Source: Trypanosoma brucei
Lineage: Eukaryota
DNA length: 64,000 nucleotides
Assembly (NCBI GenBank): GCA_000002445.1
Contig: CP000066.1
Span: 1,568,001 to 1,632,000, forward strand
Direction of reading: 5' to 3'
Shown here: piece by piece, positions 12,494 through 35,663 of the stretch
Layout of the letters: each line of letters begins with the position of its first letter
How positions within the stretch are numbered: position 1 is the stretch's first letter
The notes under the pieces: model-generated
The model's database searches: none
What the model was told of the DNA's origin: nothing
What the model saw: the letters and a program-made list of their open reading frames with translations, nothing else
Made by a program: the position numbers and the translations under genes

Positions 12494-12527
<34 letters not shown>

Positions 12528-12706
12528 GCGGTGGTATCTTTATTTCTTCCTCTTCTTTTTTGTTTAAAAAATATATATATATATATATATTTTTTTCCTT
12601 TTCTGTTCTATAGTTAAGTTTCATTGATAATCTAAACAAACTTATAGATTCCCCCCTCTCCCTCATTCATAATACACTAACGATTTGTTTTTGTAATACC
12701 CATCCA
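10865..12706. repeat. 1.8-kb microsatellite- and homopolymer-rich intergenic region
   Basis: Contains poly-T/poly-G/poly-A runs and several microsatellites: (TG)n near 11816-11836, (CA)n at 12112-12133, (GTT)12 at 12497-12531 and (TA)n at 12573-12591. ORFs here translate to poly-F/L/C/V low-complexity strings. Confidence 0.7.
11386..11619 (+). CDS. Possible small single-pass membrane protein (hypothetical, 77 aa)
   Basis: ATG at 11386. MLVSASETFKDMIHNTSSALITVAVGCVIIVLLWFTVWSTTLKD... has one clear TM helix and a basic tail. It is the only non-low-complexity ORF in the long intergenic region, and it could be spurious. Confidence 0.2.
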   Translation: MLVSASETFKDMIHNTSSALITVAVGCVIIVLLWFTVWSTTLKDVPFIHEFFNAFTRRTGSKKKPQVRTKKCTVIFR

Positions 12707-17999: not shown

Positions 18000-19472
18000 A
18001 TGCGCATTGGGAAGTATTGCGTCGTTTTTCTGCTAGTGTGGACGCAAGCAACCAAGAGAAGCGTGGGAAAACCCACAAATATTATAAATCAGGAAGAATT
18101 TAAAGCATTATGTGCTTTCGTGAATTTGGCGAATGAATCGGTAGACTACGCAGGTCTCGAAGCCGAAATCAGGGACGCGGCAGCAGATATCGGGGCTATT
18201 TTTCTTGCGTCGCAGCAAGAAAGCATTTCGAAATTGAGGGAGCAAATTGAGATCTGGCGCGAGGTTGAAGCAACCAATAACGGAGGGAACAACCGAGGCA
18301 TTAAAAAGTGGAGTGTTTGGGAGGAAGCGAGAAGAAAGCTAATAGATGAAGGCGGAACAAAATATGTGCAATGGGTTGAATTGGGCTTGAGTGATGCTGA
18401 GAAGCAGAAGATAGAGGAAGCTATGGATGAGACAGTCAAATGCATGGCGGAGGAGAACGGCTTGTGGGACACTTTGCGGGAAATGCCAGTAAAAGGAAGT
18501 ATAACAAAAGCAATATTCGGATCCAGGGAAAGGCAAGTGCAGATTATGAAAGGACGCGGTAGCCGCGAAACCGCTTGTGGCAGGGGATTATTCCCTGGAG
18601 ACTGGGCGGGCACGGCATTGAGCGCTGACTTACTGTGCCTGTGCGCCGCTACGGAACGCAGGGCCGCCACCAACGAGGGTTGCTGCACAGGATGCGAGAC
18701 AGGGGGAAATGGCGTTGCTTGGGATCCAAGGGTGCATAGTGAGGAGAGGTGGAATTTGCTTAGAAGTAAATGTGAAAAGGTCAGCAGCGGTACTCCCCTT
18801 TCAAGTCGAGCGCTGTCGGTTGCGGAGAGTACATTTTTCAACCAACTGAAGATCTCAAAAGGGTCAACATCAGGAAGACCAACGCTACTGGGTAAATTTG
18901 GAACTAGCTTTTCCGTGGGTTGTACCGGGGAAATCACCGAGAAAGAGGGACGTTGCGTTCGGTATAGCCACAGCCATGTTGACAGAAATAATCCAGCGCT
19001 ACCCTGGCTTACAAACTTAAGGGAGGCGGCAAATGCAGTAGATCAGTTGAATGCAGTTGATACAAAGCTCAAACATCTACGCGTTGGTATAGCCACCTTC
19101 CACACGAAGCATGTTGATTTTAAATCGCGTGAAAAAGGAAACGGCGGCGACCCTATTCTGGGAAGCGGTGGCGTAGAGGGTGAAGTTAACACCAATGAGT
19201 CAACGAAGGCGAACACAAACGATGGTAGAGCAAAAAAGGCTGGTGAAAGCAAAAGAACACCTGTCGACAACATTTCACATAAATGCGAAGGTTATAGGCA
19301 GGGAAAAACATGCAAAAGTCGAAAAGTGGAAACGGAATGTGACTGGGAGGAGGGTACATGCGTTGGCTCTGCCAGTGAGCCAGTCACTTCGCCTCTGAGG
19401 CAAAGACCACCTACTTCAGGGAAGGTAAACTCCATTAGATGCTCACTGAGTTTGTTTTTAATACTATTATAG
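18000..19472 (+). CDS. VSG-related (variant-surface-glycoprotein-like) protein
   Basis: 490 aa, with an N-terminal hydrophobic signal. The N-domain is helical and rich in A/E/L, and carries a ...SADLLCLCAATE... motif. The C-terminal block CEGYRQGKTCKSRKVETECDWEEGTC is Cys-rich and ends in the hydrophobic tail SIRCSLSLFLILL, consistent with a VSG C-terminal domain plus GPI signal. Length and layout fit a T. brucei VSG. Confidence 0.5.
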   Translation: MRIGKYCVVFLLVWTQATKRSVGKPTNIINQEEFKALCAFVNLANESVDYAGLEAEIRDAAADIGAIFLASQQESISKLREQIEIWREVEATNNGGNNRGIKKWSVWEEARRKLIDEGGTKYVQWVELGLSDAEKQKIEEAMDETVKCMAEENGLWDTLREMPVKGSITKAIFGSRERQVQIMKGRGSRETACGRGLFPGDWAGTALSADLLCLCAATERRAATNEGCCTGCETGGNGVAWDPRVHSEERWNLLRSKCEKVSSGTPLSSRALSVAESTFFNQLKISKGSTSGRPTLLGKFGTSFSVGCTGEITEKEGRCVRYSHSHVDRNNPALPWLTNLREAANAVDQLNAVDTKLKHLRVGIATFHTKHVDFKSREKGNGGDPILGSGGVEGEVNTNESTKANTNDGRAKKAGESKRTPVDNISHKCEGYRQGKTCKSRKVETECDWEEGTCVGSASEPVTSPLRQRPPTSGKVNSIRCSLSLFLILL

Positions 19473-22400
19473 TCATCGTGAGCGAAACCATTATTAAGAA
19501 TGGTTTAGGTTATAAAATGGTTTAGCTAACTATTTTATTCGATCTACAGGGGGAGATATGTGTTCTTACTTTATTATGTAGGACTGCTTTTGGTGGTTAT
19601 CATGATTATGTTCTTTCAGTATGTAGGCTGCCGCTGGAACCCACACATTTAAGCTGATCATGCCTCCTATGGAAGGTTTTATGGGGGTAAAATACAGGGT
19701 GTTGTGGACTAGTTTTACCTCGAAAGGGGAATGTACATCAAGAATCCGGGGGCTGTCCTTCATATCTATTTGCTCCCTGTGTGCAACTCGTTTGCTGTGA
19801 AGAAGAGTGGGGCGTTTATTCACTATTTTGTTTTTTTCTTTGCGACAACGTACTCCGAGTACTAAGGATGGACATCCACTGAGAAGTTATACGCTGGCTG
19901 GTATATGCTTTTGGTGGAGTCTATGTATACCTTGGCGCATAGAGATGGCGAAGTTGGGAAGGTGAGCGCGTTGTGTTGTCTTTGGTAAGCTAGTATACTG
20001 CTGTAAAGCGAGTTTTAATGACGGGGGAGTATTTACGGTGCGGGTATTATGTTGCTTGGATTGCATTCTTAGGAAAATTTGGACGGAGAAGTGTTCAGTT
20101 GGGAAGATTATTACCACGAAATGGAGTGGCATTCGCGAGTGTGTGCAGGAAAATATATCCTCGTAGAAAGTGTGCTGATGGGACAGTACATTTTCGTGGG
20201 GAATATAAGGCTCTTTACCACAGTATTTTTGTTGCGGGGATAACTGGTTACTCACTGGCACCAAGTGCCGCCAATCTCAAGCTCATGTCGTTGTTGGTGT
20301 TGCCTCTTTCAGTGAGAGGCAACGGCACAGACGAAGGTACATCAGCGGGTAGTGTTGCACAGCGCATAGGTTAAGGGGAATTCATTTCGGTAAGGAATTC
20401 CGCTAAACACCGGCAGCTCGAAAATTACGCACCGCTAAAGTGATAGTTGAAGCTTCAACCGCCTAAAGTTACCGTTGGAAAACAAAAATGCAATATGTGC
20501 AACAGAGGTCTTGTTTGCACATGGAAATGGGCCTGTCTTACCGTTGAACTTTCCGGCGATTTTGGAGTCACACGGCTGCCAGCCCGTCAGGTGTGCAACC
20601 AAAAGGCAACCTCACTCTGAAGAATCCCACTGCCGCATTTGCAGGTGGTAAAACTGCAATGGATAGCGGTACGGAACCGACTTCAGAAGAACGAACTGCG
20701 AGGCATAACAGCGGGGGAACGGGCACCAAGGGAGAAAGAAGCAAGGTGGTTTTCCGTGCCGCAGGGTATGTCGCTCCAGGGAAACAGGTATCTAGTTCGA
20801 CTCCTGCAAACTCTCTTAACAGCGGCGCTTGTTCCTCGCCCCATATCACCACTGACCGAGGAGCAAGCATTTTCCACTCCTCATCATACCCAATCTATCA
20901 TACAACGAATCCGATTGTTATGTCCTTTTTATACCATATAAATATATCTTCTCTTTCAAAGCAGTAAAGTGCTGGAGGAGGTCAATACGGAAACATTTAT
21001 AATTATAAAAATTGTTTCTACGAATCATTTTTCTAGAGGAAGTGCATAGAGATGCCAAATTACCCTAACCCGAACCAATTGAAGAATGTTTGAATGTGCT
21101 GAAGCACTCTCTCAAAAGATGGAAGAGGAGGTACGACATTGCCCAAATAATACAACTCCGTGTTGAAAGTAGTGAATTGAAGTACAGGCACGGATCAACA
21201 TTAGCTCGCATCAGTTTTCACGCTACAAACTAAGTCTTTTAATTGGGTTAGTGCAGCAGCCGAGATAAGCGCTGAGGTTATCAACTTGATGGAAGTAGTG
21301 TCTGTCACAAACAAACCTTCGAGGTGCGGAGCAGAGGTCTTATCGGCACGTATATTACAAATTTCGGGGAGAAAGGCTTAGGGAAAAGTAAGATTATCGT
21401 ACAAACACCCGTCAGTTGGGGGTTCGTCAAGAAAATATAAGTCAGATAGATTATAAATTAGGAATCGGGATGTATACATTTTTTTACATGATAAATTTTG
21501 GAGCAGCGGAAGTAAAGGTTTCCATGGGTAGAAGATGGGGATGTGCACGGCTAAGGTGTTGGTGTTTTTGATACTGGCATCCAGGTAGCAAGTGTAAAGG
21601 GTGCTAATTGTGATGAGTTGAAGATTCTTCGTGGTTTCCTGAGGCCTGTTTGGGGGTATTTAAATGTGGTTGACGAAGGAAGCAAGGAACGCGTTACAGG
21701 CACTTGAAACCAAGGAATCGAGTCCTTACTGGGGCGATATCCCATGGCACCGATAGGTTGTAGAACAGAAAGCACACATTCAATCAGCGACGAATGCAGC
21801 ATTTGTTCCGTGTGCGAGGAAAAAGTGAGCAACGTACTTAAAATAAACCCCGAAAACCCTTTGTCAACACCCAGGACAAAGCAAAGCGACTTGAGCAACC
21901 ACAAAGAATTGACGAATTTGGTCGAACAAGCCTCTGAGCTGTACATGAAAAACTCACTGAAAGTCAGAGTGACGGCAGAAGATTTTCAAAAGGATGCAGA
22001 GGAAATACTCTACGGTATAGAAGACAAAAAAAAGTCCAAAAGGTATGGAACTAAGAAGGGAGCAGGCTTGCGGTAAAGAAGTATCAAGCTGAAACAACTA
22101 CTTTCGGCGTGCGCTAACTATAGACCTGATGTGCTTGTGCTTTCCCCCAGAACTACCTTTAGCTGCCGCGTTGTGTTGCGATAGGTGCAACATGGAACCA
22201 AACACCGCGACCTGGGACGTAGAAACCTCCACCAAGATAACCGATTTTATGATCGAAAAATGTGGAGATTGCCCGCTTCCATAAGTGAGTTTTGTGAAAA
22301 CTATGAAGAAAAACTTCGTGAAGCTAAATGATCTCGGAAAGTTTAGGAAGAAATCCAGAGGAAAGGCTTTCTGTGCTGTAGGTTGGGACAATAGGGAAGA

Positions 22401-24951
22401 TATGCAGAGTTGCTCGGGAAGAACAAAGTCGGCAACCTGTGCGCAGTACAACACAAGCGAAGGAGGTCTTGCCTGGGGAGAGGTGTCTTAGCTAAAAAAA
22501 AAAACTAATGAAGTTACAAAATCAATTGCGAGATTTAAGACAATATGGAACTCAACGGAAAATGCAAGAGGCAACAACTAAACTGGAAAGGCAGATTGAT
22601 ACTTTTTCGAACAGGGAGGTTGACGAGGAACTGGAGCACATTCAACTGGTACAAAAACATGAGCCACCCGCAAAGCATCAGCATCCGTCTCCACGCGTGG
22701 AAGCAACGGAAGGTAATGACAAACAAGTCATGACCGAAAACTTAAACAGCAAGCCTAACGATAGAGTTAGGGCACATGCTGCGGAAGGAAACTCGGGGAA
22801 TCCTGTCTTGCAACAGGGAAATGAGTCCAAAGAAATCCCACATCAGCCACAGCGACCAAAAAGCGGCACCCAAATTGTTCCGCCTCTTAAGGTTCTTTTG
22901 CTTTTCCTGTAGAACAATACACAGGTTTTTATGTTCATAGTGATAACAGTTTGAACAACCAAATTCTCTACGGAATTCCGGAAGCTGACTTTCGATTGGA
23001 ACCACTATCCTATTTCCCCTTTCTGGAAAAGAACTACTGGTAACGAACAGAGCACACTCAGGCTCTACAGGATCAAACTCACTGGGAAAACTATTGTCAC
23101 TAAGGGTGAAAAAAAAAAATCGTGGAGCACCATCAGTGTACCTAATGGTTTCATTTGAGTGGCAAATAAATAAAATCAAAACATGAAGGAATGGGAAAGT
23201 AGTTCATTTCGGCGGAGTACGCAGAAGGTGCGAGGCTGTTGCGCTGTTAAAATAATATCTGAAACTCCACCAGAGTAGGCAACACTCGTCTTGAGAGAAA
23301 AATAACGGACATGTCACAAAAACAAATGAAAATTTCAGTCTATTGCCTATTAATCTTTTTATGATGGGTTGAATGTGAAACTACCGTAGATTTTTTCGTT
23401 CTGACTGACTGTAGGAGACAAAAGCACTTCAAATGCGCTCTCCGGCAATAACGGCCAGCGACGAGGTGAAGTGGAAGCTACAGTGAGTGACAGGTGCGTG
23501 AGAAGCGTTAACGTAAATGCCTTCGTTCACCTGTGTACAAAATGTTAAAACGTGACAAAGGAAGCGACCTCAGAAAAATACGTAAAAGTCGCGAGAACAT
23601 ATGGATCGACAAGGCAAAAAAAAACAATCGCTCAAATCCGAGATGGTGGAGGAGAGATCGAGTATTATATCGATAAAAACCACATCAGCGGTGCACACCA
23701 AAATAACGAGTGAAAGGCACACGTGAGCACAAAAGTGCGCGAGATCTAACCTAATTTAGCGGATAACCGCAGTGCTACTGCGAAAAGTAAAAGGGGACAC
23801 CTCACACCAAGAAAACAACTGTGTGTTTCGTGCAAGTTTAGAAGGGAAAATGGTAAGACCGTGACACAAAGGATCAGAGAAGTTTTCACAGTATTTTTAA
23901 AAATATGCACTCACAAAAGCTGCCGCACAAATCAGTGAGTTGCACCATAAAACCTCAAAAATATCCGCCGATAACACAACCGTGCGGTTAACCACCCGTA
24001 AGAAACAATGGACTGTGTCGCACCGGCGAAAAGGAGGTAAACAAGTTCAGAAATATGAAAAAAAAAAAGTGTATGTGACGTGCGACTGTTACATCCCTTA
24101 CAGAAGAATCAATACCCGTGACTACATTATGAACCCGGAAGTTGTATTAAGCGTCAGCCGGACGACTAAACCAGGGTGTGGCATGCATCACTAACCACAC
24201 ACGCATAAACACAAAGGGAAAGATTGCAAAATTATATCACAAGCCCCAAGGAAACACTCGAATACCATTGATCAACCAAAAACGAAGGAATGTCTAATAA
24301 CATGCAGACAGCCTTCACCAGATGGGATGTTGAATGCAGAGAGCGTTGGTTGGGAGTATATGGCATGAAAATCGTACGGACGAGAAGCAATCAAAAGTTA
24401 AATGTCACCCTTGGTGGTTCGGACAAACAGTAGTTAAGAAGTGGTAACAAGCACAAAGCGCAAAGAACAAAAGGAAGGGAGAATGATGCCAAAAAGTGAA
24501 GATGACGACCGCCGCTGAAGAGCGTGTGTATGTGACCTACAACCGGAGAAAAAAAAGGAGTCTAGCAAAAAAAAAAACGCAGCAGAGGATGCCGAGTCGA
24601 GCTAAGTTAAGGAGGGGGAAATAAAACTTGAAGCCAAAAGTACAAACCCGGAGAAGAGTAAATGTTCCCACACACTACCGGGTGATCGATCCGGAGTTAG
24701 CACCTAATTTCCGCTAACTCTTTCTCAAGTTATTACCATATTTTTACGAATATCGTTGTTTTAGCTTGCGAAAATTGTCCCGAAAGTCATCACTAGAACA
24801 AGAGTATTTTCCAGCTGCAACACCCCAAACTGTTGAGAAAAAAAAAGTTGCACCGTCTCACTTATAATAAAAAAATATCAAAAAATATATTGGAATTCAA
24901 TCAAGAACACCACTTTTCTTCTATTTATGTTTCCTTTTAAGAAGAGGAGCG

Positions 24952-25944
24952 ATGGAGAACAAATATTTAGTGTGGTGCATGTTTTTTTGTTTAACGGTTG
25001 TGGGGGGCAAAGCTAATGCAGTGAAAACAACGCTAAAGAAAGAAACGAATTGCCACACAACTGTTAAAGCACTGTTCAACAAACGTGAAAACTGTCATGA
25101 TCTGGCCTCCGATGCAACGAAAATAAATGAGGATGTTGACATCGGAACAGATGCAGATAGATGGACTGCTTGCACATGGTTAGAATATGATAAGAGGCGT
25201 ACGGAGACACAATGCATATTGAGGTTTAACAACACATATGGAGAGAAATTAGTATGCACCTACGAAACAAAGGGCAATCGCCAAGACCTAAGTTGCAAAC
25301 CAGAGGGTCGTTGCGAAGACGCTCGCGAGCGGTACCTTTTAGGGGAAGAAGGATGTCCGAAGCCTGCACCACGTGAAGAACCAAAAAGAAACAAAACCGA
25401 AAGGTGTCTTGATGAGGTTTATGGGTCATTCAGCGGTGACCAGGAGTGTGCGAAACTTAAAATAGGAAGCGAGGTCGCCGAGCAAATTATATTCAGGGAG
25501 AACGGAGATGACAAAACACCAGAATGTATAGAAGCAAGTGGCCCCCCAGAGTCGAAAGTGGTTGGAGAAGCATGCGTAATAAAGTTGCGAACCGAGCCAC
25601 ACCCATCAGAATATATTTGCAAAATGGAGGGTTCTGGTGAGGAAAGGAAAATAAAATGCACAAGAGAAACATCGAAAACAGTTCCTCAACCTACGACCAC
25701 AAGGAAGAGACGAGGCAGTACTGGATCCATGCGCAAAAGAAGTGACGACGGTGGTAACACTGAGGTCACCCTGAAAGAAGATAAAGACAAAACACAAGAT
25801 GAGGATGAAGGCCAAAAAGAAGAAAGAAAAGAAGAAAGCGGTGAAGAAACTGGTACAGCAAAAGCTCGAATCAAAAGCAAAACTTATTGGAAATCAAATA
25901 ATCCTATTATCATGCTTTTAACACTTTCGTTATTGTTGCTTTAA
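24952..25944 (+). CDS. Diverged leading member of the tandem surface-protein family (signal peptide, Cys-rich ectodomain, K/E-rich stalk, GPI-signal-like tail)
   Basis: 330 aa. It shares Cys spacing and motifs with the array genes (TQCILRFNN..CTYET, GEAC.IKLRT, ERKIKCT, WKSNNPIIMLLTLSLLLL), but the ectodomain is only about 40-50% identical. Its 3' flank is nearly identical to the flanks in the array. Confidence 0.7.
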   Translation: MENKYLVWCMFFCLTVVGGKANAVKTTLKKETNCHTTVKALFNKRENCHDLASDATKINEDVDIGTDADRWTACTWLEYDKRRTETQCILRFNNTYGEKLVCTYETKGNRQDLSCKPEGRCEDARERYLLGEEGCPKPAPREEPKRNKTERCLDEVYGSFSGDQECAKLKIGSEVAEQIIFRENGDDKTPECIEASGPPESKVVGEACVIKLRTEPHPSEYICKMEGSGEERKIKCTRETSKTVPQPTTTRKRRGSTGSMRKRSDDGGNTEVTLKEDKDKTQDEDEGQKEERKEESGEETGTAKARIKSKTYWKSNNPIIMLLTLSLLLL

Positions 25945-26389
25945 TACTGTTTAATAATAAACGGTAATGTAAACTGTTTGGAAGAAAGTATGCTTTTAAC
26001 GGAGAAGGGAAGTGAGTGTATCAAAACATTTTTCTTGTAAGACATACATTAAGGGAACATTTTTATGTTTTTTTTTTGTCACGCGTCACTGCTGTAAAAA
26101 AAACTTCTTGCGCTCAAGTTGTATCGAAAGTATTGAATTTTCAACGATGTTGTTCGGTGGGGAAGGTAAGGGGAATAGGATATATAGTTGTGTCGGGGAC
26201 GGCGTTCTGTTTGTTGAAAGGGGTAAAGAGAGGAAAAAACCCTACACCGGGTGAAAGTAACTGACTGATGAAGTTCGTTTGGATCGATAGACAAGTGGAA
26301 CTCGCCGCAAAAAGGTTGTAACAGCATTTAACCGGCACATGCGGCTTAGCGTTTTAGGTTGAGAAATGCACGTATAAAGGCACGGATGC

Positions 26390-26700
26390 TCAGGAAATAC
26401 CCTTATTTCTGATAACATAATTGGACGCTAAGCTAGAGAAGGCACAACACCAGATTCGAGAATACAACAGAAAAATGACGGGCGATGGCACCGACGAAGA
26501 GGAACAATTGAAGCGGGTCGCTGAAATCGATAACATCAATGCCCACGGCAGCCTCCTCTCGACGCGCGGACAAAACAAGAAAAAAAAATGCAGCTTCAGA
26601 AAAAAAAAAAAATGTTTCTTTGGGAAACCACTTGAAACTGTTGAGGAAAAGAGGGTTTGCCACGCCCAGCCGCTAATGATAATGTGAAATGGAAATTTAC
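26390..26700 (+). promoter_or_regulatory. Conserved ~300-nt intergenic element, a putative 3'UTR/processing regulatory element. It recurs after every array gene: 28268-28578, 30146-30390 (shortened) and 31961-32290
   Basis: The block starts about 450 nt after each stop codon and is near-identical between units. It contains an 88-codon ORF (MDAKLEKAQHQIREYNRK...) that is intact in three copies. In the copy before gene 3 the ORF is broken by a deletion, so selection is probably acting at RNA/DNA level rather than on a peptide. Confidence 0.3.
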
Positions 26701-26730
26701 AGTATCCATTTAACCTACAATATCATGATT

Positions 26731-26757
26731 CCTACACCTTTATCATTCTTCCTTTAG
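26731..26757 (+). promoter_or_regulatory. Polypyrimidine tract plus AG: probable trans-splice acceptor 11 nt upstream of the array-gene ATG. Equivalent sites are at 28609-28635, 30421-30447 and 32301-32327
   Basis: cctacacctttatcattcttcctttAG lies immediately before gcgaaaacaaaATG in every unit. This implies a very short 5'UTR. Confidence 0.45.
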
Positions 26758-26767
26758 CGAAAACAAA

Positions 26768-27829
26768 ATGAGGAAACAACATGTCATATACTACGTATTT
26801 TTCTGCTTAGGAGCCATAGGAAGCAGAGGAGAGACAGAACCAATAACAATACAAAAAGGAACGGAGTGCCACAAAGCATTGGAAACAGCGTTCACCACGC
26901 CCAAAAACTGTGAGAATGTAAGCACAGCGATAAGCGAAATGCCTGAAAATGTTAGCATTGAAACATTCCCGGGGGCATGGACCGTGTGTCAATTCATGGA
27001 AAACGAAAAAGAAAGCACAGTCACGCAATGCATTTTGAAGTTCGAAAACGCAGAGGGAAATCGAATAGCGTGCACCTACGAAACCGAGGGCGGACAAGGA
27101 AACGTAAGCTGCACACAGGAAGTGGATGCTCCGGTGGCTTATCATCCATACTGTGAGGGAGCCGAATACGATTATACTTATCATGACGAAAGCCACGGTC
27201 ATGGGAGCGGGGGCTATGAGCGGCGTTGTCCCGAGCCGGGTCCACGTCCTGCGCCACTGAATGAAGAAGCTCACAGGTGTGTTGCCGACGTCCTTGTTGC
27301 ATTTGGTGGTCACCATGAATGTGCAAAACTCTACGGCACAGATCCGGCACTCGATCCTGAAGATGTCATCTTCGGCGAGAAAGGAGATGACAAACCAAAA
27401 TGCACGGAGGCAGATCGACCCGAGGTGTCCACATTGGTTGGAGAAGCATGCGAGGTAAAATTGCGGACCAAACCAGAACCAGACGAATACTTGTGTAAGG
27501 TAGAAACCTCTAACGGTAAAAGAAAAATAAAGTGTACCCCCAAAACACCAAAAACAATTCCTCAACAAGCGGACACAGTAAAGAAACCAGATACCACTGA
27601 ATCCATGCAGAAAAAAGCTGACGATGGTGGTAAAACTGAGGTAACACCAGAAGTAAAAGATGGGCAAAAAGATGAAAAGGGTGGGAAAGAAAGGCAAGAA
27701 AAGCAAAAAATGGAAAATAATACTGGAAAAAGCAATGAAGCAGCGACAAACACTAAAACGCAGGCTTCTTCTTGGAAATCAAATAATCCTATTATCATGT
27801 TTTTAACACTTTCTTTATTGTTGCTTTAG
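26768..27829 (+). CDS. Tandem-array surface protein copy 2 (signal peptide, Cys-rich domain, K/E/T-rich stalk, GPI-signal-like C-terminus)
   Basis: 353 aa. Signal peptide MRKQHVIYYVFFCLGAIGSRG, more than 14 conserved Cys, and a stalk KKPDTTESMQKKADDGGKTEVTPEVKDGQKDEKGGKERQEKQ. The tail SSWKSNNPIIMFLTLSLLLL is a small-residue omega site followed by a hydrophobic segment. Confidence 0.75.
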   Translation: MRKQHVIYYVFFCLGAIGSRGETEPITIQKGTECHKALETAFTTPKNCENVSTAISEMPENVSIETFPGAWTVCQFMENEKESTVTQCILKFENAEGNRIACTYETEGGQGNVSCTQEVDAPVAYHPYCEGAEYDYTYHDESHGHGSGGYERRCPEPGPRPAPLNEEAHRCVADVLVAFGGHHECAKLYGTDPALDPEDVIFGEKGDDKPKCTEADRPEVSTLVGEACEVKLRTKPEPDEYLCKVETSNGKRKIKCTPKTPKTIPQQADTVKKPDTTESMQKKADDGGKTEVTPEVKDGQKDEKGGKERQEKQKMENNTGKSNEAATNTKTQASSWKSNNPIIMFLTLSLLLL

Positions 27830-28645
27830 TATCATTTAATAAACGGTAATGTAGACTGTTTTGAAGAAAGTATGCTTTTAACGGAGAAGGGAAGTGAGTG
27901 TATCAAAACATTTTTCTTGACAGACGTACATTAAGGGAACATTTTTATTGTTTACTTGCCATATTGCACTGCTAAAAAACTTCTCGTGCTGGAGTTGCGT
28001 GCGAAGTATTAGATTTCTTCACCGATTCTTTTTTGTAGCGAAGGTAAGGGGAATAGGATATGTAGTTGTGTCGGGGACGGCGTTCTGTTTGTTGAAAGGG
28101 ATAGCAGGAAGAGAAAACTCTACCCCGGGTGAAAGCAACTGACTTGTGCAGTTCGTTCGGATCGATAGACAGGTGGAAATCGCCGCAAAAAGGTTGTAAC
28201 AGCATTTGATCGGCACATGTGGTGTAGCGTTTTGGGTTGAGAAATGCACGCATAAAGGCACGGATGCTCAGGAAATACCCTTATTTCTGATAACATAATT
28301 GGACGCTAAGCTAGAGAAGGCACAACACCAGATTCGAGAATACAACAGAAAAATGACGGGCGATGGCACCGACGAAGAGGAACAATTGAAGCGGGTCGCT
28401 GAAATCGATAACATCAATGCCCACGGCAGCCTCCTCTCGACGCGCGGACAAAACAAGAAAAAAAAATGCAGCTTCAGAAAAAAAAAAAAATGTTTCTTTG
28501 GGAAACCACTTGAAACTGTTGAGGAAAAGAGGGTTTGCCACGCCCAGCCGCTAATGATAATGTGAAATGGAAATTTACAGTATCCATTTAACCTACAATA
28601 TCATGATTCCTACACCTTTATCATTCTTCCTTTAGCGAAAACAAA

Positions 28646-29707
28646 ATGAGGAAACAACATGTCATATACTACGTATTTTTCTGCTTAGGAGCCATAGGAA
28701 GCAGAGGAGAGACAGAACCAATAACAATACAAAAAGGAACGGAGTGCCACAAAGCATTGGAAACAGCGTTCACCACGCCCAAAAACTGTGAGAATGTAAG
28801 CACAGCGATAAGCGAAATGCCTGAAAATGTTAGCATTGAAACATTCCCGGGGGCATGGACCGTGTGCCAATTCATGGAAAACGAAAAAGAAAGCACAGTC
28901 ACGCAATGCATTTTGAAGTTCGAAAACGCAGAGGGAAATCGAATAGCGTGCACCTACGAAACCGAGGGCGGACAAGGAAACGTAAGCTGCACACAGGAAG
29001 TGGATGCTCCGGTGGCTTATCATCCATACTGTGAGGGAGCCGAATACGATTATACTTATCATGACGAAAGCCACGGTCATGGGAGCGGGGGCTATGAGCG
29101 GCGTTGTCCCGAGCCGGGTCCACGTCCTGCGCCACTGAATGAAGAAGCTCACAGGTGTGTTGCCGACGTCCTTGTTGCATTTGGTGGTCACCATGAATGT
29201 GCAAAACTCTACGGCACAGATCCGGCACTCGATCCTGAAGATGTCATCTTCGGCGAGAAAGGAGATGACAAACCAAAATGCACGGAGGCAGATCGACCCG
29301 AGGTGTCCACATTGGTTGGAGAAGCATGCGAGGTAAAATTGCGGACCAAACCAGAACCAGACGAATACTTGTGTAAGGTAGAAACCTCTAACGGTAAAAG
29401 AAAAATAAAGTGTACCCCCAAAACACCAAAAACAATTCCTCAACAAGCGGACACAGTAAAGAAACCAGATACCACTGAATCCATGCAGAAAAAAGCTGAC
29501 GATGGTGGTAAAACTGAGGTAACACCAGAAGTAAAAGATGGGCAAAAAGATGAAAAGGGTGGGAAAGAAAGGCAAGAAAAGCAAAAAATGGAAAATAATA
29601 CTGGAAAAAGCAATGAAGCAGCGACAAACACTAAAACGCAGGCTTCTTCTTGGAAATCAAATAATCCTATTATCATGTTTTTAACACTTTCTTTATTGTT
29701 GCTTTAG
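28646..29707 (+). CDS. Tandem-array surface protein copy 3 of the family (near-identical to copy at 26768)
   Basis: 353 aa. Differs from copy 2 by a single conservative change (T to A in ...HELT/AHGP on the antisense track, equivalent). The sense protein is identical on the track. Confidence 0.75.
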   Translation: MRKQHVIYYVFFCLGAIGSRGETEPITIQKGTECHKALETAFTTPKNCENVSTAISEMPENVSIETFPGAWTVCQFMENEKESTVTQCILKFENAEGNRIACTYETEGGQGNVSCTQEVDAPVAYHPYCEGAEYDYTYHDESHGHGSGGYERRCPEPGPRPAPLNEEAHRCVADVLVAFGGHHECAKLYGTDPALDPEDVIFGEKGDDKPKCTEADRPEVSTLVGEACEVKLRTKPEPDEYLCKVETSNGKRKIKCTPKTPKTIPQQADTVKKPDTTESMQKKADDGGKTEVTPEVKDGQKDEKGGKERQEKQKMENNTGKSNEAATNTKTQASSWKSNNPIIMFLTLSLLLL

Positions 29708-30457
29708 TATCATTTAATAAACGGTAATGTAGACTGTTTTGAAGAAAGTATGCTTTTAACGGAGAAGGGAAGTGAGTGTATCAAAACATTTTTCTTGACA
29801 GACGTACATTAAGGGAACATTTTTATTGTTTACTTGCCATATTGCACTGCTAAAAAACTTCTCGTGCTGGAGTTGCGTGCGAAGTATTAGATTTCTTCAC
29901 CGATTCTTTTTTGTAGCGAAGGTAAGGGGAATAGGATATGTAGTTGTGTCGGGGACGGCGTTCTGTTTGTTGAAAGGGATAGCAGGAAGAGAAAACTCTA
30001 CCCCGGGTGAAAGCAACTGACTTGTGCAGTTCGTTCGGATCGATAGACAGGTGGAAATCGCCGCAAAAAGGTTGTAACAGCATTTGATCGGCACATGTGG
30101 TGTAGCGTTTTGGGTTGAGAAATGCACGCATAAAGGCACGGATGCTCAGGAAATACCCTTATTTCTGATAACATAATTGTACGCTAAGCTAGAGAAGGCA
30201 CAACACCAGATTCGAGAATACAACAGAAAAGTGAAGACGGGTGATTTAAGCGGGTCACTGAAATCAAGATCATTAATACAGACGGCAGCATCAGTGGAGG
30301 GGGAAATATTTTTTTTAATACTTGAAACTGTTGAGGAAAAGAGGGTTTGCCACGCCCAGCCGCTAATGATAATGTGAAATGGAAATTTACAGTATCCATT
30401 TAACCTACAATATCATGATTCCTACACCTTTATCATTCTTCCTTTAGCGAAAACAAA

Positions 30458-31522
30458 ATGAGGAAACAACATGTCATATACTACGTATTTTTCTGCTTAG
30501 GAGCCATAGGAAGCAGAGGAGAGACAGAACCAATAACAATACAAAAAGGAACGGAGTGCCACAAAGCATTGGAAACAGCGTTCACCACGCCCAAAAACTG
30601 TGAGAATGTAAGCACAGCGATAAGCGAAATGCCTGAAAATGTTAGCATTGAAACATTCCCGGGGGCATGGACCGTGTGTCAATTCATGGAAAACGAAAAA
30701 GAAAGCACAGTCACGCAATGCATTTTGAAGTTCGAAAACGCAGAGGGAAATCGAATAGCGTGCACCTACGAAACCGAGGGCGGACAAGGAAACGTAAGCT
30801 GCACACAGGAAGTGGATGCTCCGGTGGCTTATCACCCACACTGTGGGGAACATGGAAGTGACCATGGTTATGATAACGGCTATGATGGTTATAATGGCGT
30901 GGCGTATGGTGAACTGGGTTGTCCCGAGCCTGGTCCACCTCCTGCCCAACCGAACGATGAAGCTCACAGGTGCATTGCCGACGTTTTCGCTGCATTTAGT
31001 GGCCACCTTCCATGTGCAAAATTCTACGGCACAGATCAGGCATTCGGTCCTAAGGAAGTCGTCTTCGGCGAGAACGGAAATGAAAAACCAGAATGTGCAG
31101 AAGGAAGCGAACCCCCGGAATCCAAGGTGGTTGGGGAAACATGTGAAGTAAAATTGCGGACAAAAAAACAACCAGAAGAATATGTATGTAAGGTAGAAAC
31201 CTCTAACGGTAAAAGAAAAATAAAGTGTACCCCCAAAACACCAAAAACAATTCCTCAACAAGCGGACACAGTAAAGAAACCAGATACCACTGAATCCATG
31301 CAGAAAAAAGCTGACGATGGTGGTAAAACTGAGGTAACACCAGAAGTAAAAGATGGGCAAAAAGATGAAAAGGGTGGGAAAGAAAGGCAAGAAAAGCAAA
31401 AAATGGAAAATAATACTGGAAAAAGCAATGAAGCAGCGACAAACACTAAAACGCAGGCTTCTTCTTGGAAATCAAATAATCCTATTATCATGTTTTTAAC
31501 ACTTTCTTTATTGTTGCTTTAG
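30458..31522 (+). CDS. Tandem-array surface protein, mosaic copy (central ~120 codons replaced)
   Basis: 354 aa. The first ~124 and last ~110 residues are identical to the other copies. The central segment (nt ~30828-31190; ...YHPHCGEHGSDHGYDNGYDGYNGVAYGELGCPEPGPPPAQPNDEAHRCIADVFAAF...EGSEPPESKVVGETCEVKLRTKKQPEEYVCKV) is divergent. It shares PPESKVVGE with the leading diverged gene at 24952. Confidence 0.75.
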   Translation: MRKQHVIYYVFFCLGAIGSRGETEPITIQKGTECHKALETAFTTPKNCENVSTAISEMPENVSIETFPGAWTVCQFMENEKESTVTQCILKFENAEGNRIACTYETEGGQGNVSCTQEVDAPVAYHPHCGEHGSDHGYDNGYDGYNGVAYGELGCPEPGPPPAQPNDEAHRCIADVFAAFSGHLPCAKFYGTDQAFGPKEVVFGENGNEKPECAEGSEPPESKVVGETCEVKLRTKKQPEEYVCKVETSNGKRKIKCTPKTPKTIPQQADTVKKPDTTESMQKKADDGGKTEVTPEVKDGQKDEKGGKERQEKQKMENNTGKSNEAATNTKTQASSWKSNNPIIMFLTLSLLLL

Positions 31523-32337
31523 TATCATTTAATAAACGGTAATGTAAACTGTTTGGAAGAAAGCATGCTTTTAACGGAGAAGGGAAGTGAGTGTATCAAA
31601 ACATTTTTCTTGACAGACGTACATTAAGGGAACATTTTTATTGTTTACTTGCCATATTGCACTGCTAAAAAACTTCTCGTGCTGGAGTTGCGTGCGAAGT
31701 ATTAGATTTCTTCACCGATTCTTTTTTGTAGCGAAGGTAAGGGGAATAGGATATGTAGTTGTGTCGGGGACGGCGTTCTGTTTGTTGAAAGGGATAGCAG
31801 GAAGAGAAAACTCTACCCCGGGTGAAAGCAACTGACTTGTGCAGTTCGTTCGGATCGATAGACAGGTGGAAATCGCCGCAAAAAGGTTGTAACAGCATTT
31901 GATCGGCACATGTGGTGTAGCGTTTTGGGTTGAGAAATGCACGCATAAAGGCACGGATGCTCAGGAAATACCCTTATTTCTGATAACATAATTGGACGCT
32001 AAGCTAGAGAAGGCACAACACCAGATTCGAGAATACAACAGAAAAATGACGGGCGATGGCACCGACGAAGAGGAACAATTGAAGCGGGTCGCTGAAATCG
32101 ATAACATCAATGCCCACGGCAGCCTCCTCTCGACGCGCGGACAAAACAAGAAAAAAAAATGCAGCTTCAGAAAAAAAAAAAATGTTTCTTTGGGAAACCA
32201 CTTGAAACTGTTGAGGAAAAGAGGGTTTGCCACGCCCAGCCGCTAATGATAATGTGAAATGGAAATTTACAGTATCCATTTAACCTACAATATCATGATT
32301 CCTACACCTTTATCATTCTTCCTTTAGCGAAAACAAA

Positions 32338-33399
32338 ATGAGGAAACAACATGTCATATACTACGTATTTTTCTGCTTAGGAGCCATAGGAAGCAGAGGA
32401 GAGACAGAACCAATAACAATACAAAAAGGAACGGAGTGCCACAAAGCATTGGAAACAGCGTTCACCACGCCCAAAAACTGTGAGAATGTAAGCACAGCGA
32501 TAAGCGAAATGCCTGAAAATGTTAGCATTGAAACATTCCCGGGGGCATGGACCGTGTGCCAATTCATGGAAAACGAAAAAGAAAGCACAGTCACGCAATG
32601 CATTTTGAAGTTCGAAAACGCAGAGGGAAATCGAATAGCGTGCACCTACGAAACCGAGGGCGGACAAGGAAACGTAAGCTGCACACAGGAAGTGGATGCT
32701 CCGGTGGCTTATCATCCATACTGTGAGGGAGCCGAATACGATTATACTTATCATGACGAAAGCCACGGTCATGGGAGCGGGGGCTATGAGCGGCGTTGTC
32801 CCGAGCCGGGTCCACGTCCTGCGCCACTGAATGAAGAAGCTCACAGGTGTGTTGCCGACGTCCTTGTTGCATTTGGTGGTCACCATGAATGTGCAAAACT
32901 CTACGGCACAGATCCGGCACTCGATCCTGAAGATGTCATCTTCGGCGAGAAAGGAGATGACAAACCAAAATGCACGGAGGCAGATCGACCCGAGGTGTCC
33001 ACATTGGTTGGAGAAGCATGCGAGGTAAAATTGCGGACCAAACCAGAACCAGACGAATACTTGTGTAAGGTAGAAACCTCTAACGGTAAAAGAAAAATAA
33101 AGTGTACCCCCAAAACACCAAAAACAATTCCTCAACAAGCGGACACAGTAAAGAAACCAGATACCACTGAATCCATGCAGAAAAAAGCTGACGATGGTGG
33201 TAAAACTGAGGTAACACCAGAAGTAAAAGATGGGCAAAAAGATGAAAAGGGTGGGAAAGAAAGGCAAGAAAAGCAAAAAATGGAAAATAATACTGGAAAA
33301 AGCAATGAAGCAGCGACAAACACTAAAACGCAGGCTTCTTCTTGGAAATCAAATAATCCTATTATCATGTTTTTAACACTTTCTTTATTGTTGCTTTAG
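32338..33399 (+). CDS. Tandem-array surface protein, last copy
   Basis: 353 aa, identical in translation to the copy at 28646. Confidence 0.75.
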   Translation: MRKQHVIYYVFFCLGAIGSRGETEPITIQKGTECHKALETAFTTPKNCENVSTAISEMPENVSIETFPGAWTVCQFMENEKESTVTQCILKFENAEGNRIACTYETEGGQGNVSCTQEVDAPVAYHPYCEGAEYDYTYHDESHGHGSGGYERRCPEPGPRPAPLNEEAHRCVADVLVAFGGHHECAKLYGTDPALDPEDVIFGEKGDDKPKCTEADRPEVSTLVGEACEVKLRTKPEPDEYLCKVETSNGKRKIKCTPKTPKTIPQQADTVKKPDTTESMQKKADDGGKTEVTPEVKDGQKDEKGGKERQEKQKMENNTGKSNEAATNTKTQASSWKSNNPIIMFLTLSLLLL

Positions 33400-33939
33400 T
33401 ATCATTTAATAAACGGTAATGTAAACTGTTTGGAAGAAAGCATGCTTTTAACGGAGAAGGGAAGTGAGTGTATCAAAACATTTTTCTTGACAGACGTACA
33501 TTAAGGGAACATTTTTATTGTTTACTTGCCATATTGCACTGCTAAAAAACTTCTCGTGCTGGAGTTGCGTGCGAAGTATTAGATTTCTTCACCGATTCTT
33601 TTTTGTAGCGAAGGTAAGGGGAATAGGATATGTAGTTGTGTCGGGGACGGCGTTCTGTTTGCTGGAAGTGGCAAAGGGAGGAAAAAACAAACAAACTTGT
33701 CAGATGGGAGTGGCTTTCAGGAAAACCTGTACAGTTGAAACTGGGGAAGGGAAAGTTACGGAAGGATAAAACAAATTGTGTAATCGAATTCGTCGCTGAT
33801 GATAAAACAAACGAACGGAGTTCACCACCCTGAAACCGTAGCTGCGTCTTCCTCCGTCACATACGACACAACAATGTAAGCCTAATGTTGCTGGTATAAG
33901 GAAACGCATTGTTGCGCAGGAGACGCCCACGGCCATGGC

Positions 33940-34130
33940 AGTTTAATTGGACGCTAAGCCAGCGAAAGAACTATGCCAAACTCGAGAGCACGACAGTGAT
34001 GGCTGGTGGCGCTCACGAAAATGTGTGATGGCAGGAACTCGCTGAGTTCAAGATCGTCAATGCCAACGGCAGCATTCCCTCGACACACGGAAGAAATAAG
34101 CAAAAAAAGAGATGCTGTACACAAGCTATA
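33940..34130 (+). repeat. Diverged relic of the conserved intergenic element, downstream of the array end
   Basis: ttaattggacgctaagccagcgaaag...atcgtcaatgccaacggcagcattccctcgacacacgg aligns at about 70% with taattggacgctaagctagagaagg...atcaacatcaatgcccacggcagcctcctctcgacgcgcgg from the array units. No CDS follows it. Confidence 0.5.
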
Positions 34131-35663
34131 TGCCAAAGCCGAACTCAGCCATTGTTGTCATGACGCCAAGCGGGAAAGAGAGCCAACGGCAACTTGCAAA
34201 TGCAGCGAAATAAGGATCGTTGAGAAACGACTTGGTGTGGACACCATGGGCGAAAGTTCACAGGCGCAGGAAATACCGGCGGTATATTCGGTGACGAGGC
34301 CTATGGTAAAAACCGTCACGCTATCCTAGCGCAGGTATTGGGGTGATTACGACGCGGGTGAGGGAAATGGGAAGAGGTGCAAAATGTCAGGAAATTCTTG
34401 AGAGCGTGCGAATTCTGCAAAGGTAAAAAGGACAGCAGTCGTTGACATCGGGAACAGAAGGAAGACGCAGCTTTTAACAGAATGCCGGAAGGCGCGAGCA
34501 CAGCCAAACAAATGGCAAGACGAGCTGAGAAGGCTACTGGCCACACTCTGAAATGGAAAGCCGCAGCGAGGGTGGGGGGAAACGCGCAGGTTCAGAGAGT
34601 TTTACCGGAAGAAGTCGAAAAGATGGCGAAACCTTCAGGAGTTAAAAATGTTTGGAAAAGGACAAAGCGGAGAAAATATCAGTAGTCGCCGGGAGAAAAT
34701 GCAGTGGCTGTCTTCGGACTGGTTTAGTTCGCGTCGCGACAACGACACCTCATATATAAAATTTCCTGAAAATAATGACGATGACGGCGAAAAACTCTTT
34801 TAAAACTCTTTTTTTCACAATTCCCCATTATTTTCATCTATTCCACATAACCTGTAGACGACCATGACTTGAGGTGAAAACCAGTTACACATGGGACGTT
34901 CTCGCGTCATTCCTCGTACCGGTTATTTCCATCATGTACCGCGAGGGCCATTGCACAGCGCATCATCTTCCGTTGACAGATGTTGTAGTTGGATTCCGTG
35001 TCCGGCTGTTTTGAAACGTTACGTCGGCCACCGTATGCCAGATTCCTCCTTTGTTATTGTTTTCGTTTGTGTAAAAACGCCGATACAGATGCAATTAGCA
35101 GCTCCAGTGTGACAATTGGAACAACCGATCGTATTTCGTACTTGCTTGTTTGTTTTTTCTGCGAACCTTTCAACGCATCAATCCCATCCTTTGCCAATCT
35201 CCACGCTTATGGACCCTTAAGGGGTCGTGCTATATCAATCTTCCAACACCCGGTCATCACTGTGGATTCCGCCTCCGCCTCTGATGATAACGTTCCGTGC
35301 AAAATGTGGCATTTACCCTTTTCTCGCGCAGTTATTTGCTTAGGTGATCCTTTTCGGCCGGTAGAGTTCCCCGGAATTCCGCTGCGACTCACCTGAGATC
35401 AGACCTGTATTCTGCTTAACACCACCGATCTCAACATTGAGAGCGCTCTAAAGATACCGAAAGAATCATGTTCGCACGTGCGTGGAGGATCACACCGATG
35501 TTTCCCACCATCCTGAAAACCGACGGTTTCGCCGCTTTCCCTTCTCCCCCGGGCAGGCCGTTACTGTCCGACTGCCGCAATCCTTAAGACGGGATGCGCG
35601 CGAACATTTAATCTCCCCGGCTCTCGAAGATGCACCGGATTCAAACATCGCAATGAGGTGTGT

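What the first reader, a model, noticed from the sequence alone, without database searches (positions are those of the whole stretch)
24952..33661. Five-gene tandem array of a Cys-rich, GPI-signal-bearing surface-protein family
Five head-to-tail genes, with units of ~1.8-1.9 kb. Each encodes a signal peptide, a ~230-aa Cys-rich ectodomain (≥14 conserved Cys), a K/E/T-rich stalk, and a C-terminal omega-site-like SSW followed by the hydrophobic tail KSNNPIIMFLTLSLLLL. Three copies are identical, one is mosaic, and the leading copy is diverged.

By eye I could not match the family to the standard VSG, ISG, procyclin or BARP architectures. The stalk and GPI-tail organisation suggests an invariant or stage-specific coat protein. 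Arrays this homogeneous usually mean high expression demand or ongoing gene conversion.
Basis: seen in the sequence. Interest (0 to 1): 0.65.

Follow-up and report, generated by a model that had tools for sequence, protein, structure and literature searches.

The report
Catalogued trypanosome surface-protein gene array

Summary
Five head-to-tail + strand genes (330, 353, 353, 354 and 353 aa; units 1.81-1.88 kb) encode a signal peptide, 14 conserved Cys, a K/E/T-rich stalk and a C-terminal GPI-type tail.

The window is T. b. brucei TREU927 chromosome 3 and the genes are Tb927.3.5690-.5730. They are already published as tandem array 20 (Jackson 2007) and as T. brucei-specific "Fam6" of the cell-surface phylome (Jackson 2013: SignalP yes, FragAnchor GPI yes, 0 TM helices, bloodstream-enriched microarray signal). 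No functional study was found.

New here:
- The ectodomain is an internal duplication of a ~90-aa six-Cys module.
- The family is a strict orphan: an HMM scan of 1.84 billion proteins found only itself.
- Copy 1 and copies 2-5 are anciently split (dS ~1.1), whereas copies 2, 3 and 5 are a recent amplification.
- Copy 4 is a gene-conversion mosaic.
- T. b. gambiense keeps one frameshifted copy-1-type gene joined directly to the post-array flank.

The fold could not be resolved (AF2 pLDDT 41-45). The best reading is a dispensable, receptor-level (not coat-level), GPI-anchored glycoprotein of mammalian-stage parasites.

The parts
24952..25944 (+). Copy 1, Tb927.3.5690 (330 aa), the diverged 'type 1' gene. 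It is the only type kept in T. b. gambiense.
   Evidence: ORF. It is 46% identical in protein to copies 2-5, with dS ~1.1. It is >=90% identical to the DAL972 protein P0004. Gene ID.
26768..27829 (+). Copy 2, Tb927.3.5700 (353 aa), 'type 2'. Sub-parts: signal peptide 26768-26833, six-Cys module D1 26849-27121, two-Cys H/Y/G/D-rich linker 27122-27259, six-Cys module D2 27260-27541, K/E/T-rich stalk 27542-27766, GPI-type signal 27767-27826.
   Evidence: It is 100% identical to XP_844160.
28646..29707 (+). Copy 3, Tb927.3.5710 (353 aa). The protein is identical to copies 2 and 5.
30458..31522 (+). Copy 4, Tb927.3.5720 (354 aa), the mosaic copy.
   Evidence: It matches XP_844162 / Q57VH1.
30795..31212 (+). 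Diverged patch of copy 4 covering the linker and most of module D2. dS is 0.38-0.45 against copy 2, while the rest of the CDS has dS = 0.
   Evidence: Sliding identity; Nei-Gojobori estimates by region.
32338..33399 (+). Copy 5, Tb927.3.5730 (353 aa). Its CDS is 100% identical to copy 3.
25889..26071 (+). Conserved 3' block: the last ~55 nt of the CDS (GPI signal) plus the first ~125 nt of the 3'UTR. It is 94-95% identical in all five copies and in T. b. gambiense. Equivalent blocks lie at about 27774-27953, 29652-29831, 31467-31646 and 33344-33523.
   Evidence: searches (family D8; GPI-signal dS 0.09), alignment.
26232..26245 (+). Proximal breakpoint of the indel relative to T. b. gambiense. 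Up to here DAL972 follows the copy-1 3' flank.
33687..33700 (+). End of the array, where repeat homology stops. From here DAL972 follows the post-array flank.
   Evidence: (D9)
26716..26757 (+). Pyrimidine-rich tract and AG 10-11 nt upstream of the ATG, a putative trans-splice acceptor. It is identical upstream of copies 2-5. Copy 1 has its own at about 24905-24944.
   Evidence: Sequence. An assembled Tb927.3.5690 transcript starts about 15 nt upstream of the ATG if the window starts at chr3:1,568,001 (the offset is inferred).

Best explanation
The region is the T. brucei brucei TREU927 chromosome 3 array Tb927.3.5690-.5730, which is cell-surface phylome family Fam6.

How it most likely works. 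Each gene sits in the + strand Pol II polycistron. Its mRNA is trans-spliced about 10 nt upstream of the ATG, and abundance is set after transcription, higher in bloodstream forms and metacyclics than in procyclic or other tsetse forms. The protein enters the ER through an N-terminal signal peptide. It forms seven disulfides (three in each of two homologous ~90-aa six-Cys modules and one in the linker) and is N-glycosylated. Its C-terminal ~18-20 residues are replaced by a GPI anchor at a small residue just upstream of WKSNNP. A disordered K/E/T-rich stalk of ~75 aa holds the two-module head away from the membrane, in the flagellar pocket or within the VSG coat. There it probably acts as a low-abundance, non-essential binding protein of the mammalian stage.

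Evolution. An old duplication produced type 1 (5690) and type 2. Type 2 was then amplified recently by unequal crossover or conversion. Copy 4 keeps an older linker+D2 allele. T. b. gambiense lost type 2 by recombination within the conserved 3' block.

Shown: gene identity, architecture, internal duplication, orphan status, divergence pattern, the gambiense structure, and published RNA profiles.
Inferred: GPI attachment, disulfides, localisation, binding function, and the direction of the indel.
For: Identity: the 353-aa protein is 100% identical to a TREU927 protein on a 1,653,225-bp contig. Gene IDs come, and the synteny is SPT16 ... VSG-related Tb927.3.5680.

Targeting signals: published SignalP, FragAnchor and TMHMM results are SP yes, GPI yes, TMH 0. 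SignalP D = 0.59 and HMM P = 0.89. The 12-residue hydrophobic tail ends at the C-terminus.

Expression: microarray values are cBF 6280, slender 8311, stumpy 9500, procyclic log 2404 and procyclic stationary 582. Tsetse-stage values are 0.3-2.7. Tb927.3.5690 is about 2.4-fold higher in metacyclics than in epimastigotes. A Tb927.3.5690 transcript has been assembled.

Module duplication: Cys spacing is 14/26/14/14/13 in D1 and 14/27/16/15/13 in D2. Shuffle z-scores are 4.0 and 7.0. hhalign covers 85 columns at E = 0.023. MAFFT keeps all six Cys invariant. AF2 predicts the same helix-plus-four-strand pattern in both modules.

Selection: dN/dS is 0.39 between types, and all 14 Cys are conserved.

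Evolution.
Against: No protein-level evidence was found. The genes are absent from the held supplements of the Gadelha 2015 bloodstream surface proteome, and the other proteome supplements were not available. In copy 1 the omega site is unclear (KSKTYWKSNNP), and no GPI predictor could be run here. The fold is unresolved, so a 'binding head' is speculation. The one T. b. gambiense gene is frameshifted, which argues against an important conserved function. The metacyclic enrichment is not significant (FDR 0.82 and 0.058). Published expression values for identical copies suffer from cross-hybridisation and multi-mapping.
Confidence: 0.7

Rival explanations
1. The protein is GPI-anchored or secreted but not displayed on the cell body. 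As a low-valence GPI protein it would be confined to the flagellar pocket and endosomes, quickly degraded in the lysosome, or shed.
For: It is absent from the held surface-proteome supplements. RNA levels are moderate. From my own knowledge, not tested here, GPI valence controls surface retention in bloodstream T. brucei.
Against: That proteome also recovered flagellar-pocket proteins such as ESAG6 (text), so residence in the pocket alone would not explain the absence. The oligomeric state is unknown.
Confidence: 0.2
2. The family is decaying and functionally dispensable: it is transcribed as part of the polycistron but contributes little or no functional protein.
For: The only DAL972 gene carries -1 and -4 nt deletions that put the GPI tail out of frame. 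The type-2 copies are absent from DAL972 and reported absent from T. evansi STIB805. There is no proteomic evidence. The locus lies at the core/subtelomere boundary among pseudogenes.
Against: All five TREU927 ORFs are intact. Long-term dN/dS is 0.39, with all 14 Cys, the signal peptide and the GPI tail conserved across dS ~1.1. RNA abundance is regulated by stage.
Confidence: 0.1
3. The C-terminal hydrophobic segment is a transmembrane anchor, not a GPI signal.
For: No direct evidence exists for GPI addition, and the omega site in copy 1 is ambiguous.
Against: There are only 12 hydrophobic residues and none after them. TMHMM finds 0 helices and FragAnchor is positive.
Confidence: 0.04
4. The family is a highly diverged member of a known trypanosome surface superfamily (VSG-like, ISG or ESAG) or of the apicomplexan-type 6-Cys/SRS fold.
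For: It shares the generic SP + Cys-rich + GPI layout and has tandem six-Cys modules.
Against: There is no Pfam hit at E <= 1 for the full proteins or at E <= 10 for the modules, beyond noise. There is no PDB sequence hit. The exhaustive scan found no relatives. The predicted secondary structure has an N-terminal helix in each module, unlike all-beta SRS and s48/45 domains. The Foldseek best E-value is 0.37.
Confidence: 0.04

Closest known systems
Cell-surface phylome Fam6 / tandem array 20 (Tb927.3.5690-.5730), Jackson 2007 and Jackson et al. 2013
   Same: These are the same genes. The published description matches: five T. brucei copies, none in T. congolense or T. vivax, SP+, GPI+, 0 TMH, bloodstream-enriched.
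   Different: Nothing differs. The publications list the family without domain analysis. The six-Cys module duplication, the type 1/type 2 age gap and the details of the gambiense junction are additions made here.
T. brucei GPI-anchored bloodstream receptors (ESAG6/7 transferrin receptor, haptoglobin-haemoglobin receptor)
   Same: They share a signal peptide plus GPI anchor. The stage profile and microarray level are close to the ESAG6/7 row of the same table (6263/8251/9526/1987/1592 against 6280/8311/9500/2404/582).
   Different: From my own knowledge, those receptors are VSG-like helical bundles. Fam6 has no VSG Pfam hit and is predicted to be mostly beta with one helix per module. No ligand is known.
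Invariant surface glycoproteins ISG65 and ISG75 (Fam49)
   Same: Both are invariant, bloodstream/metacyclic-biased, multi-copy tandem surface genes.
   Different: In Table S1, ISGs have one TM helix and no GPI anchor. Fam6 has no TM helix and no cytoplasmic tail, and there is no sequence similarity.
Apicomplexan SRS (SAG1) and 6-Cys (s48/45) GPI-anchored proteins
   Same: The architecture is analogous: signal peptide, tandem six-Cys modules, GPI anchor.
   Different: There is no Pfam SAG or s48_45 hit. The Fam6 modules are ~90 aa with a predicted N-terminal helix, whereas those domains are, from memory, ~120-130 aa all-beta sandwiches. The lineages are unrelated. This is an analogy only.
Other T. 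brucei-specific SP+GPI tandem families (Fam1 Tb927.6.1310-1390; ESAG9/Fam2)
   Same: They are species-specific, predicted to be GPI-anchored, and vary in copy number between subspecies.
   Different: The exhaustive search detected no homology with them. ESAG9 peaks strongly in stumpy forms (43669), whereas Fam6 is roughly flat across the bloodstream stages.

Membership tests
Cell-surface phylome Fam6 (Jackson et al. 2013) | Genes Tb927.3.5690-.5730 (example Tb927.3.5700): five paralogues in T. brucei 927 | tested here: met
   The proteins are 100% identical to TREU927 proteins on the 1.65-Mb chromosome. Five copies are present.
Cell-surface phylome Fam6 (Jackson et al. 2013) | No homologues in T. 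congolense or T. vivax (T. brucei-specific) | tested here: met
   A profile HMM scan of 1.84 billion representatives returned only the TREU927 and DAL972 proteins.
GPI-anchored secretory protein (generic) | Cleavable N-terminal signal peptide | tested here: met
   The N-terminus has a hydrophobic core (mean KD 1.9-2.2). Published SignalP results are positive. Cleavage itself was not tested.
GPI-anchored secretory protein (generic) | C-terminal signal: a small omega residue, a polar spacer, and a hydrophobic tail that ends the protein | tested here: met
   The sequence is ...QASS-WKSNNP-IIMFLTLSLLLL*. FragAnchor is positive and TMHMM finds 0 helices. The omega site in copy 1 is ambiguous.
GPI-anchored secretory protein (generic) | Covalent GPI attachment | not testable with these tools
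   This needs GPI-PLC release or metabolic labelling.
VSG superfamily (VSG, VSG-related, ESAG6/7, ESAG2) | VSG N-terminal domain (Pfam VSG_B or Trypan_glycop) | tested here: not met
   No hit at E <= 1. As a positive control, the neighbouring ORF at 18000-19472 hits VSG_B at 3.6e-71.
Invariant surface glycoproteins (ISG, Fam49) | Type I transmembrane helix plus cytoplasmic tail | tested here: not met
   The protein ends with the 12-residue hydrophobic run, and TMH = 0.
Procyclin / BARP | EP or GPEET repeats, or an Ala-rich helical-bundle domain | tested here: not met
   The sequence has no such repeats. TRF finds none in the array. The composition is K/T/E-rich. There is no Pfam hit.
Apicomplexan 6-Cys (s48/45) / SRS domain | Sequence match to the Pfam s48_45 or SAG domain | tested here: not met
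   Searches show no hit.
Apicomplexan 6-Cys (s48/45) / SRS domain | Beta-sandwich fold with a 1-2, 3-6, 4-5 disulfide pattern | tested here: inconclusive
   The AF2 models are low-confidence (pLDDT 41.5 and 45.0). Foldseek gives no significant PDB match. A predicted helix at the start of each module argues against this fold.

The most novel reading that the evidence does not exclude
The ~90-aa six-Cys module could be a new, T. brucei-restricted fold. The two-module head, with its hypervariable His/Tyr/Gly/Asp-rich disulfide-closed loop, could be a previously unrecognised GPI-anchored receptor for a host ligand such as a metal, haem or a serum protein. Its presence/absence polymorphism (four extra type-2 genes in T. 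b. brucei TREU927, but a single frameshifted type-1 gene in T. b. gambiense and no duplication in T. evansi) could then contribute to differences in host range or virulence between subspecies.
Probability: 0.08. Interest if true: 0.6.

Novelty: already known. Interest (0 to 1): 0.28.

Why it matters
Invariant surface proteins of bloodstream trypanosomes are candidate receptors, drug-entry routes and vaccine or diagnostic targets, and most T. brucei-specific families still have no known function. Fam6 is one of these. The new details give concrete handles for experiments: a duplicated orphan six-Cys module, an old type 1/type 2 split, a retained divergent linker+D2 allele, and loss or pseudogenisation in T. 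b. gambiense. The evidence also points to a dispensable, strain-variable gene family, so the expected biological pay-off is modest.

Tried and rejected
- Pfam on the full proteins and on single modules gave only noise.
- PDB sequence searches with the ectodomain and module profiles gave nothing, or E = 0.6 noise.
- The word-indexed protein search found only the TREU927 paralogues. With the module profile it did not even recover the family itself, so that result is uninformative.
- The exhaustive HMM scan found only the family itself.
- AF2 on the full-length protein with a 4-sequence alignment (pLDDT 41.5) and on a single module with merged D1/D2 (pLDDT 45.0) were both too poor for fold assignment.
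- Foldseek against PDB gave a best E of 0.37. The afdb50 library was unavailable.
- Exact-protein contig look-ups for copies 1, 2 and 4 were not on record, so other strains could not be surveyed.
- The idea that the 'absence' in gambiense is an assembly-end artefact was rejected, because the post-array flank is contiguous in DAL972.
- The idea that the conserved 3'UTR block is a structured RNA element is not supported: z-scores were -0.1 to -2.1 and inconsistent, and Rfam found nothing in the window.
- Positive selection on the mosaic patch is not supported: dN/dS is 0.49-0.75.
- Surface and whole-cell proteome supplements either had no occurrences or were not held.
- Literature searches for 'Fam6' and for the gene IDs found only catalogue-type mentions.
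Full report
OBSERVATION. The array is real. One search lists five + strand ORFs at 24952-25944 (330 aa), 26768-27829, 28646-29707 and 32338-33399 (353 aa each), and 30458-31522 (354 aa). Start-to-start spacing is 1816, 1878, 1812 and 1880 bp. Copies 2, 3 and 5 encode identical proteins. CDS 3 equals CDS 5, and CDS 2 differs by one synonymous base. Copy 4 is 91.1% identical to them at the nucleotide level, and copy 1 is 62% identical in nucleotides and 46% in protein. The spacers are repeated as well, reaching 100% identity between units 3 and 5. All copies keep 14 Cys in the mature part, a hydrophobic N-terminus, a K/T/E-rich low-complexity stretch, and the C-terminal WKSNNPIIM[F/L]LTLSLLLL. 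Two small corrections apply: 'SSW' occurs only in copies 2-5, and repeat homology ends near 33690-33700.

IDENTITY. The 353-aa protein is 100% identical to a 'hypothetical protein, conserved' of T. brucei brucei TREU927 on a 1,653,225-bp contig, which is chromosome 3. Upstream + strand neighbours are SPT16, an enoyl-CoA hydratase, an NF-X1 zinc-finger protein, a protein kinase and a VSG-related gene. Downstream lie a VSG_B fragment and ESAG1. The literature names the array directly. 'Tandem duplications on chromosome 3 (Tb927.3.5690-.5730)' are reported absent from T. evansi STIB805 and T. b. gambiense DAL972 (PMC4288722). It is array 20 in Jackson's 2007 survey of tandem arrays, found in T. 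brucei only (PMC1855330). The VSG-related neighbour is Tb927.3.5680 (PMC2771046). In the cell-surface phylome (PMC3605285, Table S1) it is the T. brucei-specific family 6: example Tb927.3.5700, SP yes, GPI yes, TMH 0, five copies in T. brucei and none in T. congolense or T. vivax. Those calls were made with SignalP, FragAnchor and TMHMM. TriTrypDB SignalP values quoted in PMC5176191 are D = 0.59 and HMM P = 0.89. No paper in the searchable library discusses the family beyond listing it.

EXPRESSION.
- Microarray values in Table S1 are cultured bloodstream 6280, slender 8311, stumpy 9500, procyclic log 2404 and procyclic stationary 582. That is 3- to 16-fold enrichment in bloodstream forms.
- The level is nearly the same as the ESAG6/7 transferrin-receptor row of that table, and well below the VSG rows.
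- In tsetse-derived parasites Tb927.3.5710 and .5720 have values of only 0.3-2.7, where neighbouring rows of the same table read 12-440.
- In salivary-gland single-cell data Tb927.3.5690 rises from 65 in epimastigotes to about 156 in metacyclics, the same direction as the ISGs, but this is not significant (FDR 0.82 and 0.058).
- A StringTie transcript for Tb927.3.5690 at chr3:1,592,937-1,594,018 (PMC8483307) maps to window 24937-26018 if the window begins at chr3:1,568,001, which is my inference. It would start just before an AG that follows a pyrimidine-rich tract. Copies 2-5 have an identical tract plus AG 10-11 nt upstream of the ATG.
- No protein-level evidence was found.

ANATOMY OF THE PROTEIN (new here). 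The ectodomain is not one ~230-aa domain. It is an internal duplication of a ~90-aa six-Cys module.
- Cys spacings are 14/26/14/14/13 in D1 (aa ~28-118 of copy 2) and 14/27/16/15/13 in D2 (aa ~165-258) in all paralogues.
- hhalign aligns the two modules end to end: 85 columns, 24% identity, E = 0.023 for a single comparison.
- Global alignment scores exceed composition-preserving shuffles, with z = 4.0 for copy 2 and z = 7.0 (0 of 2000 shuffles) for copy-1 D1 against copy-2 D2. Within copies 1 and 4 the signal is weaker, at z = 1.8-2.1.
- MAFFT of five modules keeps all six Cys, one Phe and one Glu invariant.
- The linker holds the remaining two Cys. They close a loop of 13 residues in type 1 and 24-25 residues in type 2, and in type 2 the loop is rich in His, Tyr, Gly and Asp.
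- Both AF2 runs were low-confidence (pLDDT 41.5 and 45.0). They agree on one N-terminal helix followed by a four-stranded beta meander in each module.
- Foldseek against PDB gave nothing (best E = 0.37).

ORPHAN STATUS. Pfam, PDB sequence searches and an exhaustive profile scan of 1.84 billion representative proteins found only the family itself.

EVOLUTION (new here).
- Between copy 1 and copies 2-5, dS is about 1.1 (saturated) and dN/dS is 0.39. The two types are therefore old and have been under purifying selection.
- The GPI-signal codons and the first ~125 nt of the 3'UTR are 94-95% identical in all copies. This block shows no consistent excess of RNA structure. A conversion tract or a linear regulatory motif both remain possible.
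- Copy 4 is identical to copies 2, 3 and 5 except for CDS nt ~30795-31212 (linker plus D2; dS 0.38-0.45, dN/dS 0.49-0.75) and a spacer patch at 30203-30318. It is a conversion mosaic that preserves a third, older allele. There is no sign of positive selection.
- The DAL972 locus (L001, FN554966.1) matches window 21883-26237 at 93.6% identity and then continues directly into window 33338-35359 at 90.7%. The switch lies about 290 nt after the stop codon.
- T. b. gambiense therefore truly has one type-1 gene followed by the post-array flank. This is not an assembly-end artefact.
- Given dS ~1.1, type 2 cannot be a TREU927-specific invention. The simplest reading is loss in gambiense (and in T. 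evansi) by recombination within the conserved 3' block, or an old presence/absence haplotype.
- The gambiense gene also carries -1 and -4 nt deletions that put the GPI tail out of frame. That fits its 'LOW QUALITY PROTEIN' label.

MECHANISM. The best-supported model is a secretory, disulfide-rich, N-glycosylated, GPI-anchored two-module protein on a ~75-aa disordered stalk. It would be made mainly in mammal-infective stages at receptor-like rather than coat-like levels, with copy number raised by recent unequal crossover. In trypanosomes, where genes have no individual promoters, copy number is the usual way to raise dosage (the premise of PMC1855330). The architecture, signals, RNA profile and evolutionary pattern are shown. 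GPI attachment, disulfide pairing, localisation and any binding function are inferred. The rivals are pocket/endosomal or shed protein, a decaying dispensable family, a transmembrane anchor, and a hidden member of a known fold. Each is listed with its evidence.

COMPARISON AND VERDICT. In functional terms the closest analogues are the low-abundance GPI-anchored bloodstream receptors. In architecture the family resembles apicomplexan SRS and 6-Cys proteins, but only by analogy. Membership in VSG, ISG, procyclin/BARP and s48/45/SRS was tested by sequence and was not met. Membership in Fam6 is met because these are the same genes. The finding is therefore a correct rediscovery of an already catalogued, functionally uncharacterised family. 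Its interest is modest: the orphan six-Cys module and the subspecies presence/absence pattern are worth noting, but the evidence points to a dispensable gene family.

Noticed in passing
window 18137-21883 (includes ORF 18000-19472, Tb927.3.5680): About 3.7 kb has no counterpart at the syntenic T. b. gambiense DAL972 locus, which has only ~250 nt there (L001 6691-6942). The missing stretch carries nearly all of the VSG-related gene (Pfam VSG_B, 3.6e-71). This is a second presence/absence difference right next to the array.
   Followed up: partly
window 11396-35359 vs L001 1-12941: TREU927 and DAL972 are only 90.7-95.6% identical across this locus. From memory, the genome-wide coding average is about 99%. 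This suggests deep haplotypes or fast evolution at the core/subtelomere boundary.
   Followed up: no
window 26807-27706, 28685-29584, 30497-31399, 32377-33276 (minus strand): Antisense ORFs of 299-300 aa lie inside copies 2-5. The sense strand is purine-rich (A 36%, T 19%) and all neighbouring genes are on the + strand, so these are most likely non-coding artefacts of composition.
   Followed up: partly
window 25889-26071 and equivalents after each copy: The last ~55 nt of the CDS plus ~125 nt of the 3'UTR are 94-95% identical between gene types that otherwise show dS ~1.1, and the block is also conserved in T. b. gambiense. RNA-fold z-scores are inconsistent (-0.1 to -2.1). Whether this is a conversion tract or a regulatory motif is unresolved.
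   Followed up: partly
window 34006-34329 and 34989-35396 (+ strand); L001 11589-11912 and 12571-12882: Two short ORFs (107 and 135 aa) just downstream of the array are kept as ORFs in T. b. gambiense. The second overlaps a transcript labelled Tb927.3.5740 in a published GTF, if the window offset is as inferred. Neither has a Pfam hit.
   Followed up: partly
window 36000-64000: This stretch is gene-poor and degenerate, with no Pfam hits for ten ORFs. GC skew changes sign at about 36-44 kb, and a VSG_B fragment (58206-59306) and ESAG1 (60735-61709) follow. The organisation is subtelomere-like, and a published table lists an RHS pseudogene (Tb927.3.5750) right after the array.
   Followed up: partly
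window 10881-12528: A cluster of A-rich and T-rich low-complexity tandem repeats and a (TGT)n run lies in the spacer between the kinase gene and the next ORF (12707-13873). Given the gene order seen in a published table, that ORF is probably TbGnTI, Tb927.3.5660.
   Followed up: no
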